Positions 26,317-26,911 of a stretch of 64,000 nt of DNA are shown in pieces (position 1 is the stretch's first letter; every line of letters begins with the position of its first letter). Where the stretch lies: positions 96,001-160,000 of the forward strand of contig CM000435.1 of NCBI GenBank assembly GCA_000165345.1, written 5' to 3'. The notes beneath the pieces were generated by a model that worked only from the letters and a program-made list of their open reading frames with translations, searched no databases and was not told where the DNA came from. Both the position numbers and the translations under genes were made by a program.

Positions 26317-26911
26317 ATGGTGCAGTTTTGTATTCATTGCCACAATATTCTTTTACTTAAGGAACATGAGGAGAGAATGGCATTTTATTGTCCCACATGT
26401 CCTTATGTATTCAAAATTGTGAGCCAAATTAGCAAAGTAACAGATTTTGTTCCCAAAAAGATGGAAGAACCTTCTATAGATATGAACGAAATTGCAAGCT
26501 CAAAGACAATGGGTAAGTTAAGATTATATAGTGGTAGTACTATTATTTGTAGAAGAGATCTTTATTTATTACTATATTATACAAATAAATTATATTTGTA
26601 TATTCAAAGTATTATTTATCAATTAATAAAAAAGGGAATATGAAAAAAAAAATTAAATATATTATAAGTCCTTAAAATACCTAATTATATATAAATCTCT
26701 TAAATAATACTACTATCTCTAAATATTTGCCAATTACTTTAATAATAACTTCCTATTTTACTGGTGCTCTTTATTTAAACTTTTAGCTGTTTGTCCAAAG
26801 TGCTCATTTTCTGAAGCTTACTTCTTCCAATTACAAATTAGATCAGCTGATGAACCAATGACAAGCTTTTATACTTGTGTAAAATGTGACTTCAAATGGA
26901 AGGAAAATTAA
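26317..26911 (+). CDS. RPC11: DNA-directed RNA polymerase III subunit RPC10/C11 (POLR3K); two exons: join(26317..26512, 26787..26911), 274-nt intron
   Basis: Exon 1 encodes the N-terminal zinc ribbon (MVQFCIHCHNILL...FYCPTCPYVFKI). The donor is GTAAGT at 26513 and the acceptor is ttttag at 26781-26786. Exon 2 encodes the TFIIS-type C-ribbon [39 protein letters not shown], near-identical to metazoan RPC11 ([29 protein letters not shown]). The reading frame was verified by hand. Confidence 0.8.

What the first reader, a model, noticed from the sequence alone, without database searches (positions are those of the whole stretch)
26317..26911. RPC11/POLR3K missed by the ORF track; sits back-to-back with an RPAP2/Rtr1-like gene
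The Pol III C11 subunit is split by a 274-nt intron, so only its N-terminal ribbon appears as an ORF. The C-terminal TFIIS-type ribbon encoded by exon 2 is almost identical to metazoan RPC11. The gene shares a divergent spacer carrying a double TTGGCGCC palindrome with a Pol II-associated RPAP2/Rtr1-like gene. That arrangement hints at co-regulation of polymerase-associated factors.
Basis: partly seen in the sequence, partly recalled or inferred. Interest (0 to 1): 0.5.

Follow-up and report, generated by a model that had tools for sequence, protein, structure and literature searches.

The report
Known two-exon RPC11 gene of Cryptosporidium

Summary
Exon 1 (26317-26512), a 274-nt GTAAGT...TAG phase-1 intron (26513-26786) and exon 2 (26787-26911) give a 106-aa protein. 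It has an Rpb9-type N-terminal zinc ribbon and a TFIIS-type C-terminal ribbon carrying the RSADEPMT acidic hairpin. Its best solved relatives are yeast C11 and human RPC10.

The window is C. parvum IOWA II-BGF chromosome 7 (CP141124.1). That record annotates a gene with the same span and the identical 106-aa product. The 2004 annotation split it into cgd7_505 and cgd7_510, and an RNA-seq-guided reannotation in 2015 listed cgd7_510 as an exon of a flanking gene.

Ten Cryptosporidium loci keep the intron at the same codon position, with lengths of 48-277 nt. The exons are under purifying selection.

The divergent neighbour is an Rtr1/RPAP2-domain gene. The palindrome TTGGCGCCGGCGCCAA is real and conserved. 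However, it is the generic E2F-like motif, the most abundant promoter motif in C. parvum, and it occurs in at least nine other intergenic regions of this window. It therefore does not point to a polymerase-specific regulon, and a published expression clustering puts the two genes in different clusters.

Verdict: already known, low interest.

The parts
26317..26512 (+). RPC11 exon 1: ATG plus 65 codons and one base. It encodes the N-terminal Rpb9-type zinc ribbon (C5, C8, C25, C28) and the linker.
   Evidence: Same start and same exon end in 10 Cryptosporidium loci.
26513..26786 (+). Spliceosomal intron: 274 nt, phase 1, GTAAGT...TTTTAG, 18% G+C. There is no AG in the last 118 nt before the acceptor.
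   Evidence: Position and phase are conserved, with lengths of 48-277 nt in other species. Identity to C. canis is 0.50 in the intron against 0.81-0.82 in the exons. No Rfam match.
26787..26911 (+). RPC11 exon 2, stop codon included: the TFIIS-type C-terminal zinc ribbon (C68, C71, C96, C99) with the acidic hairpin R84-SADEPM-90.
   Evidence: Pfam PF01096, E 4.4e-20; invariant columns in alignment A1; PDB matches.
26254..26269 (.). 16-nt perfect palindrome TTGGCGCCGGCGCCAA, which is two abutting E2F-like sites in the divergent spacer.
   Evidence: Conserved at 55-64 nt upstream of the RPC11 ATG in the C. parvum-like loci, C. ubiquitum and C. canis, with variants in C. felis and C. ryanae; absent in C. 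serpentis.
26280..26285 (+). Conserved TGACAT box 10 nt downstream of the palindrome; a possible core-promoter or initiator element (inferred).
   Evidence: Spacer alignment: present in 6 of 7 species or isolates, and displaced in C. ryanae.
26105..26316 (.). 212-nt divergent spacer between the two start codons; the presumed bidirectional promoter.
24374..26104 (-). Divergent neighbour: a 576-aa protein with an Rtr1/RPAP2 zinc-finger domain at residues 56-125 (cgd7_500 by gene order).
   Evidence: Pfam PF04181, E 2e-11. The same neighbour is present in all Cryptosporidium loci fetched.
26916..29252 (-). Convergent neighbour: a 778-aa WD40 plus cyclophilin protein. Its stop codon lies 4 nt from the RPC11 stop codon.

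Best explanation
This is the single-copy C. parvum gene for RNA polymerase III subunit C11 (RPC11, also called RPC10 or POLR3K; legacy ids cgd7_505 and cgd7_510 merged). It lies on chromosome 7 of the IOWA II-BGF assembly at CP141124.1:163212-163806. The pre-mRNA carries one GT-AG intron of 274 nt in the linker between the two zinc ribbons. Splicing joins G|CT into an Ala codon and yields a 106-aa protein. By homology to yeast and human C11, the N-terminal ribbon anchors the subunit on the polymerase. The C-terminal TFIIS-like ribbon inserts its acidic hairpin (D87/E88) into the active site, where it stimulates intrinsic RNA cleavage, termination and re-initiation. These functions are inferred, not tested here. 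Transcription most likely starts from a short bidirectional promoter shared with the Rtr1/RPAP2-like gene. The conserved core of that promoter is a tandem E2F/DP-type site plus a TGACAT box. This is the common promoter type of Cryptosporidium housekeeping genes, not a polymerase-specific switch.
For: Spliced product: 106 aa with Pfam PF02150 and PF01096. Full-length colinear matches to yeast C11 (5fj8_I, E 6e-20, residues 1-106 against 1-110) and to human RPC10 (7fji_I, E 3.9e-19). Both beat Rpb9 (best 55.8 bits), A12.2 (42.3 bits) and TFIIS (37 bits). An identical 106-aa protein is deposited as CUV07027.1, KAK9171303.1, KAL3126837.1 and KAL5367358.1. The window is identical to CP141124.1 over 8,595 bp, and a gene is called there at the same 595-nt span. 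Isaza et al. [quoted passage not shown] The intron keeps its position and phase, its GTAAGT or GTATGT donor and its AG acceptor in 10 loci. Its lengths are 48, 69, 85, 128, 237, 271, 274 and 277 nt. Codon differences from C. canis are 49 synonymous against 5 nonsynonymous. Of 35 GT..AG pairs that keep the frame open, only 26513/26787 has a consensus donor and matches the other species. Promoter: motif counts are, conservation, and the literature on E2F motifs and bidirectional open-chromatin peaks.
Against: I did not see spliced reads or cDNA for this junction. The transcript evidence is indirect: published RNA-seq and Iso-Seq-guided annotations plus comparative sequence. Several deposited models in other species still stop in the intron (C. 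ubiquitum, C. canis, chipmunk genotype), which shows that automated annotation remains inconsistent. Association with Pol III and cleavage activity are inferred from homology only. The transcription start site, and binding of E2F/DP to the palindrome, are untested.
Confidence: 0.95

Rival explanations
1. There are two separate genes, as in the 2004 annotation: a 108-aa N-ribbon protein that reads through into the 'intron' (XP_628241.1) and an independent C11 C-terminal fragment (XP_628242.1).
For: Both models exist in GenBank. The read-through frame stays open for 43 codons past the donor.
Against: Exon 2 has no start codon before the ribbon, and XP_628242.1 is marked partial and starts at Ile. 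The read-through tails differ completely in sequence and length between species (P0008-P0013), while both exons are conserved. C11 homologues everywhere carry both ribbons in one chain. The 2015 reannotation merged the two models.
Confidence: 0.02
2. The gene encodes a paralogue, Rpb9 (Pol II) or A12.2 (Pol I), rather than the Pol III subunit.
For: All three share the same two-ribbon architecture and the same Pfam families. UniRef names the exon-1 model 'RPB9-like'.
Against: Scores against solved chains are 72-75 bits for C11/RPC10, against at most 55.8 for Rpb9 and 42.3 for A12.2. The C-ribbon has the TFIIS/C11-type RSADEPMT hairpin, which is invariant across C11 orthologues. From general knowledge, Rpb9 lacks this hairpin. 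The database neighbours named by their sources are almost all RPC11/RPC10.
Confidence: 0.02
3. The tandem palindrome is a dedicated control element that couples expression of polymerase-associated factors (the Pol III cleavage subunit and the Pol II CTD-phosphatase-like Rtr1).
For: The tandem site and the head-to-head arrangement are conserved in all intestinal Cryptosporidium loci examined. More than half of the ATAC-seq regulatory peaks in sporozoites are annotated as bidirectional promoters rich in E2F motifs (bioRxiv 10.1101/2025.01.17.633476).
Against: The same motif sits in at least nine other intergenic regions of this 64-kb window, in front of unrelated genes. It is reported upstream of genes in 163 of 200 expression clusters. 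The two genes fall in different expression clusters, 80 and 85. The whole gene order from LDH to prefoldin is syntenic, so conserved adjacency carries no special meaning. C. serpentis keeps the arrangement without the motif.
Confidence: 0.08
4. Intron retention is regulated. A fraction of transcripts keeps the intron and yields a truncated protein with only the N-ribbon, which could occupy the polymerase without cleavage activity.
For: The retained-intron frame gives a 108-aa product with an intact N-ribbon. In one metagenomic relative the 69-nt intron is in frame and free of stops, so the gene caller read straight through it (P0005).
Against: No data support it. The intron-encoded tails are not conserved, and intron lengths show no preference for multiples of three.
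Confidence: 0.03

Closest known systems
RNA polymerase III subunit C11 / RPC10 / POLR3K (S. cerevisiae Rpc11, PDB 5fj8 chain I; human POLR3K, PDB 7fji chain I)
   Same: Same length class (106 aa against 110 and 108) and colinear over the whole chain. Both four-cysteine zinc ribbons are present, and the acidic hairpin [12 protein letters not shown] is identical to yeast.
   Different: Overall identity is only 42-48% to fungal, insect and plant orthologues. The linker is shorter and diverged. The gene carries a lineage-specific linker intron whose length varies sixfold within the genus.
Existing C. parvum / C. hominis gene models (cgd7_505 merged with cgd7_510; CHUDEA7_505; CPHLJ_7g506; CUV07027.1)
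   Same: The 106-aa product is 100% identical and the genomic span is the same.
   Different: Nothing differs from the current models. The 2004 models XP_628241.1 and XP_628242.1 are the split version, and the C. hominis and C. felis 86-aa models start at the internal Met21 and so lose half of the N-ribbon.
E2F/DP-type promoter motif of Cryptosporidium (Motif 3, DTTGSCGCCH; Oberstaller et al. 2013, PMC3734150)
   Same: The core is GGCGCC flanked by TT and AA. It is intergenic, close to start codons, strongly overrepresented and palindromic.
   Different: Here two copies abut to form a 16-nt perfect palindrome. Tandem forms recur in the window at 34806 and 55544. No binding data exist for this site.
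Rtr1/RPAP2 family (Pol II CTD phosphatase / Pol II biogenesis factor)
   Same: The neighbour has the family's zinc-finger domain (Pfam PF04181, 44.5 bits), including CGWIQC ... FCSTNCYY.
   Different: The rest of the 576-aa protein is low-complexity and unrelated. A single-sequence search found no solved Rtr1/RPAP2 chain at E <= 0.01.

Membership tests
Pol III subunit C11 (RPC11/RPC10/POLR3K) | N-terminal Rpb9-type zinc ribbon with four cysteines | tested here: met
   Pfam PF02150, residues 2-32, 26.7 bits (cut-off 25.2). C5, C8, C25 and C28 are present; C5, C25 and C28 are invariant in alignment A1.
Pol III subunit C11 (RPC11/RPC10/POLR3K) | C-terminal TFIIS-type zinc ribbon with four cysteines | tested here: met
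   Pfam PF01096, residues 67-104, 71.7 bits, E 4.4e-20. C68, C71, C96 and C99 are invariant.
Pol III subunit C11 (RPC11/RPC10/POLR3K) | Acidic hairpin (Asp-Glu in RSADEPMT) needed for RNA cleavage | tested here: met
   R84 S85 A86 D87 E88 P89 M90 are invariant across 8 orthologues. The role of the hairpin is taken from general knowledge of yeast C11 and TFIIS.
Pol III subunit C11 (RPC11/RPC10/POLR3K) | Closer to C11 than to the paralogues Rpb9, A12.2 and TFIIS | tested here: met
   Scores against PDB chains: C11/RPC10 72-75 bits (77.9 for the Rpb9-C11 chimera 3qt1_I), Rpb9 at most 55.8, A12.2 42.3, TFIIS at most 37.4. No explicit phylogeny with the C. parvum paralogues was made.
Pol III subunit C11 (RPC11/RPC10/POLR3K) | Physical subunit of Pol III with cleavage, termination and re-initiation function | not testable with these tools
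   Inferred from homology only.
Spliceosomal GT-AG intron | Consensus donor and acceptor, with an AG-free tract before the acceptor | tested here: met
   GTAAGT at 26513 and TTTTAG ending at 26786. The previous AG is at 26667, 118 nt upstream.
Spliceosomal GT-AG intron | Position and phase conserved among relatives while the sequence and length drift | tested here: met
   Ten loci share the same codon position, with lengths from 48 to 277 nt. Intron identity to C. parvum falls to 0.17-0.50 where exon identity stays at 0.69-0.88.
Spliceosomal GT-AG intron | Spliced junction observed in RNA | not testable with these tools
   Indirect only: an RNA-seq-guided reannotation merged the two models (PMC4637869), and the CpBGF annotation used Iso-Seq, RNA-seq and manual curation (PMC12179316).
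Rtr1/RPAP2 family (neighbour gene) | Rtr1-type zinc-finger domain | tested here: met
   Pfam PF04181, residues 56-125, E 2e-11, 44.5 bits (cut-off 33). Orthologues in 6 other species carry the same precomputed hit.
Rtr1/RPAP2 family (neighbour gene) | Detectable sequence similarity to solved Rtr1/RPAP2 structures | tested here: inconclusive
   phmmer of residues 1-200 against PDB sequences gave no hit at E <= 0.01. A single-sequence search may be too insensitive for this short, diverged domain.
E2F/DP binding site | Core [C/G]GCGC[G/C] flanked by T-rich and A-rich sequence, enriched in promoters | tested here: met
   TTGGCGCC occurs 14 times against 0.08 expected, and GGCGCC 14 times against 0.42 expected. 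Of 17 core sites, 14 are intergenic. The motif definition is from PMC3734150.
E2F/DP binding site | Occupied by E2F/DP proteins in vivo | not testable with these tools
   The authors of PMC3734150 state that ChIP data are lacking.

The most novel reading that the evidence does not exclude
The intron is unusually long: 237-277 nt in the C. parvum, C. ubiquitum and C. canis group, against a reported genome mean of about 99 nt (PMC4637869). It may have expanded because it serves the convergent WD40-cyclophilin gene. In exactly these species that gene's stop codon lies 0-4 nt from the RPC11 stop. Its 3' UTR and polyadenylation region would then have to lie antisense within RPC11 exon 2 and the A+T-rich intron. 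Species with short introns (48-128 nt) have gaps of 31-392 nt instead. A second, equally unexcluded reading is that the conserved tandem E2F palindrome plus TGACAT box forms a distinct promoter subclass.
Probability: 0.1. Interest if true: 0.3.

Novelty: already known. Interest (0 to 1): 0.07.

Why it matters
It matters little beyond annotation hygiene. The case is a clean example of how a short two-exon gene is lost or split by ORF-based calling in a genome that is mostly free of introns. Deposited models for C. ubiquitum, C. canis, the chipmunk genotype, C. hominis and C. felis are still truncated. They could be corrected with the junction shown here. The conserved tandem E2F site plus TGACAT box gives a compact, phylogenetically footprinted bidirectional promoter that could be used in Cryptosporidium transfection constructs.

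Tried and rejected
I looked for an RNA gene hosted in the long intron. Rfam at permissive E-values over 26100-27000 found nothing. The intron alignment shows no conserved block beyond the splice signals and a weak branch-like TAAC/TACT region, so I rejected this idea.

Rfam at gathering thresholds and ARAGORN over the whole window found no RNA family and no tRNA. There is therefore no local link to Pol III templates.

I enumerated alternative splice pairs. Thirty-five GT..AG pairs keep the frame open, but none except 26513/26787 has a consensus donor or agrees with the other species.

I searched PDB sequences with the Rtr1-like N-terminus and found no hit. That assignment rests on Pfam alone.

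I tried to obtain motif-per-cluster data for expression clusters 80 and 85 from the supplement of PMC3734150. The stored table is truncated and I did not pursue it.

The paper hits for 'cgd7_503/504/505' turned out to match longer ids such as cgd7_5040 and cgd7_5050, and were uninformative.

Full report
**What is in the sequence.** The plus strand has an ATG at 26317. It opens a frame encoding MVQFCIHCHN...SSKTM and then meets GTAAGT at 26513. A second frame opens downstream, after TTTTAG ending at 26786. It reads [41 protein letters not shown] and stops at 26909-26911. Joining 26512 to 26787 gives 321 nt, that is 106 codons plus the stop. The intron is 274 nt, in phase 1, and 18% G+C, against 34% for the exons and 29% for the window. 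The mechanical ORF list shows only exon 1 running on into the intron and shows nothing for exon 2.

**What the product is.** The 106-aa protein matches Pfam Zn_ribbon_RPB9 at residues 2-32 and Zn_ribbon_TFIIS at residues 67-104 (E 4.4e-20).
- Among solved structures, the best natural matches are colinear over the full length: yeast Pol III subunit C11 (5fj8_I, E 6e-20, residues 1-106 against 1-110) and human RPC10 (7fji_I, E 3.9e-19).
- The single top hit is an engineered Rpb9-C11 chimera that carries the C11 C-ribbon.
- Rpb9, A12.2 and TFIIS score 17 to 40 bits lower.
- An alignment with fungal, insect, plant and haptophyte orthologues shows C5, C25, C28, C68, C71, C96 and C99 invariant, together with R84-S-A-D-E-P-M90. 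The eighth zinc ligand, C8, is present in C. parvum but substituted in one distant orthologue.
- Exon 2 is 67% identical to an insect RPC10 and to yeast C11. That is strongly conserved, but 'almost identical' overstates it.

**Where the window comes from, and whether this is new.** A database search with the spliced product returned an identical 106-aa protein. It is deposited under CUV07027.1, KAK9171303.1, KAL3126837.1 and KAL5367358.1, with names from C. parvum and C. meleagridis records and a UniRef cluster spanning four Cryptosporidium taxa.
- Fetching the encoding contigs showed that 8,595 bp around the gene are identical to CP141124.1 of GCA_035232765.1.
- A gene is called there over exactly the same 595-nt span.
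- GCA_035232765.1 is the telomere-to-telomere C. parvum IOWA II-BGF assembly. It was annotated by lift-over, BRAKER2, Iso-Seq, stranded RNA-seq and manual curation (PMC12179316).
- Window position 1 corresponds to CP141124.1:136896.
- The 2004 Iowa II annotation had two models here. One was a 108-aa 'hypothetical protein' that reads through into the intron (XP_628241.1). The other was a 62-aa 'RNA polymerase III subunit C11, partial' (XP_628242.1).
- The RNA-seq-guided reannotation of Isaza et al. [quoted passage not shown] It also reports a newly detected double-zinc-ribbon domain in cgd7_505 (PMC4637869, Tables S1 and S2).

The finding is thus a correct rediscovery of something published and deposited.

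**Independent support for the splice.** I could not see RNA reads, so I tested the junction comparatively. I fetched loci from three further C. parvum-like assemblies, from C. ryanae, C. serpentis, C. ubiquitum, C. felis and C. canis, and from one metagenomic contig.
- All of them interrupt the gene at the same point, after the first base of the codon that follows ...K-[T/I]-M.
- All have a GTAAGT or GTATGT donor and an AG acceptor.
- Intron lengths are 48, 69, 85, 128, 237, 271, 274 and 277 nt.
- Against C. parvum, exon identity stays between 0.69 and 0.88 where intron identity falls to 0.17-0.50.
- Codon differences are mostly synonymous, for example 49 against 5 for C. canis and 32 against 6 for C. 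ubiquitum.
- The read-through tails in the truncated database models differ entirely between species.
- Within C. parvum, 35 GT..AG pairs would keep the frame open, but only 26513/26787 has a consensus donor and agrees with the other species.
- The last 118 nt of the intron contain no AG.
- Nothing in Rfam matches the intron, and it holds no conserved internal block.

**The neighbour and the spacer.** The minus-strand gene 24374-26104 encodes a 576-aa protein with an Rtr1/RPAP2 domain at residues 56-125 (E 2e-11, above the Pfam cut-off). A single-sequence search against solved structures found nothing, so the assignment rests on the profile.
- The two start codons are 212 nt apart.
- The 16-nt perfect palindrome TTGGCGCCGGCGCCAA lies at 26254-26269.
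- It is conserved 55-64 nt before the RPC11 ATG in the C. parvum-like loci, C. ubiquitum and C. canis.
- It is altered to TTTGGCGCGCGCGCC in C. felis and to GTGGCGCCGGCGGG in C. ryanae, and it is absent in C. serpentis.
- A TGACAT box 10-14 nt downstream is also conserved, while the rest of the spacer is not.

This looks like a real promoter core placed nearer to RPC11 than to the Rtr1-like gene.

**Why the co-regulation idea is weak.** GGCGCC occurs 14 times in the window against 0.42 expected, and TTGGCGCC occurs 14 times against 0.08 expected.
- Of the 17 [C/G]GCGC[G/C] cores, 14 lie between genes.
- They stand in front of a WD40-cyclophilin and prefoldin pair, a TPR protein, a kinase, a cyclin and several proteins without a known domain.
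- This is the E2F-like motif of Cryptosporidium. [quoted passage not shown]
- It is also the dominant motif in sporozoite open-chromatin peaks, more than half of which are annotated as bidirectional promoters (bioRxiv 10.1101/2025.01.17.633476; review PMC12246861).
- In the 2013 clustering, cgd7_500 is in cluster 80 and cgd7_510 is in cluster 85. I did not compare the two cluster profiles.
- The whole block from lactate/malate dehydrogenase to prefoldin is syntenic across the genus, so the conserved head-to-head arrangement carries no special meaning.

A shared E2F-type bidirectional promoter is likely. A polymerase-specific regulon is not indicated.

**Mechanism, with shown and inferred steps separated.**
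- Shown by sequence and comparison: the gene structure, the product, its family, the conserved promoter core and the gene neighbourhood.
- Taken from the literature: transcript-guided merging of the two old models, and the genome-wide role of E2F-like motifs.
- Inferred from homology: the N-ribbon docks the subunit on Pol III, and the C-ribbon's Asp-Glu hairpin reaches the active site to drive RNA cleavage, termination and re-initiation.
- Untested: the transcription start site, E2F/DP occupancy, and co-expression with the Rtr1-like gene.

**Verdict.** The feature is already known and is of low interest, apart from showing that several deposited Cryptosporidium models of this gene are still truncated.

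Noticed in passing
window 26909-26918; also L005-L010: The RPC11 stop codon and the stop codon of the convergent WD40-cyclophilin gene are only 4 nt apart, and 0 nt apart in C. ubiquitum and C. canis, so the two 3' UTRs must overlap in antisense. Across 8 loci, long RPC11 introns (237-277 nt) go with gaps of 0-4 nt and short introns (48-128 nt) go with gaps of 31-392 nt. These are only a few phylogenetically independent points.
   Followed up: partly
window 26310-26360: An out-of-frame ATG lies 7 nt upstream of the RPC11 ATG, in a good context (A at -3, G at +4). It opens a 16-codon ORF (MENGAVLYSLPQYSFT*) that overlaps the start of RPC11. It is present in the C. parvum-like loci and absent in C. 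ubiquitum and C. canis. Whether it lies within the mRNA depends on the unknown transcription start site.
   Followed up: partly
window 26280-26285: A TGACAT(T) box lies 10-14 nt downstream of the tandem E2F-like site and is conserved in 6 of 7 aligned Cryptosporidium spacers. It may be a core-promoter or initiator element. TGACATTT occurs 6 times in the window; I did not test this for enrichment.
   Followed up: partly
window 55542-55555: A second tandem E2F-like site, TTTGGCGCCGGCGCC, lies inside the annotated 664-aa CDS 54842-56836 (minus strand, no Pfam domain). There it encodes Gly-Ala-Gly-Ala. It is about 1 kb upstream of the DEAH-helicase gene start at 54535. It could be an internal promoter or a coincidence of coding sequence.
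   Followed up: no
window 46623-46632: The palindromic E2F-like site TTTGGCGCCAAAA lies inside the 3' part of the annotated 614-aa CDS 45138-46982 (+), about 500 nt upstream of the next same-strand gene (MAPKK1_Int domain, starting near 47133). This recalls the E2F motifs reported between the genes of polycistronic transcripts.
   Followed up: no
L007 (C. ubiquitum), L009 (C. canis), L008 (C. felis), and database proteins P0004, P0006, P0009-P0012: Deposited RPC11 models in several Cryptosporidium species are wrong. Exon 1 is read through into the intron in C. ubiquitum, C. canis and the chipmunk genotype. The C. hominis and C. felis 86-aa models start at the internal Met21 and so lose half of the N-terminal zinc ribbon. 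The correct 106-aa product can be assembled in every case.
   Followed up: yes
L010 228-617 (ENA metagenome contig ERZ11466776 NODE_17448): A short metagenomic contig carries a Cryptosporidium-like RPC11 whose 69-nt intron is in frame and free of stops. The gene caller therefore produced a 129-aa read-through protein. The sequence is closest to C. ryanae-type sequences.
   Followed up: partly
window 1-64000: No Rfam family at gathering threshold and no tRNA gene was found anywhere in the 64-kb window.
   Followed up: yes
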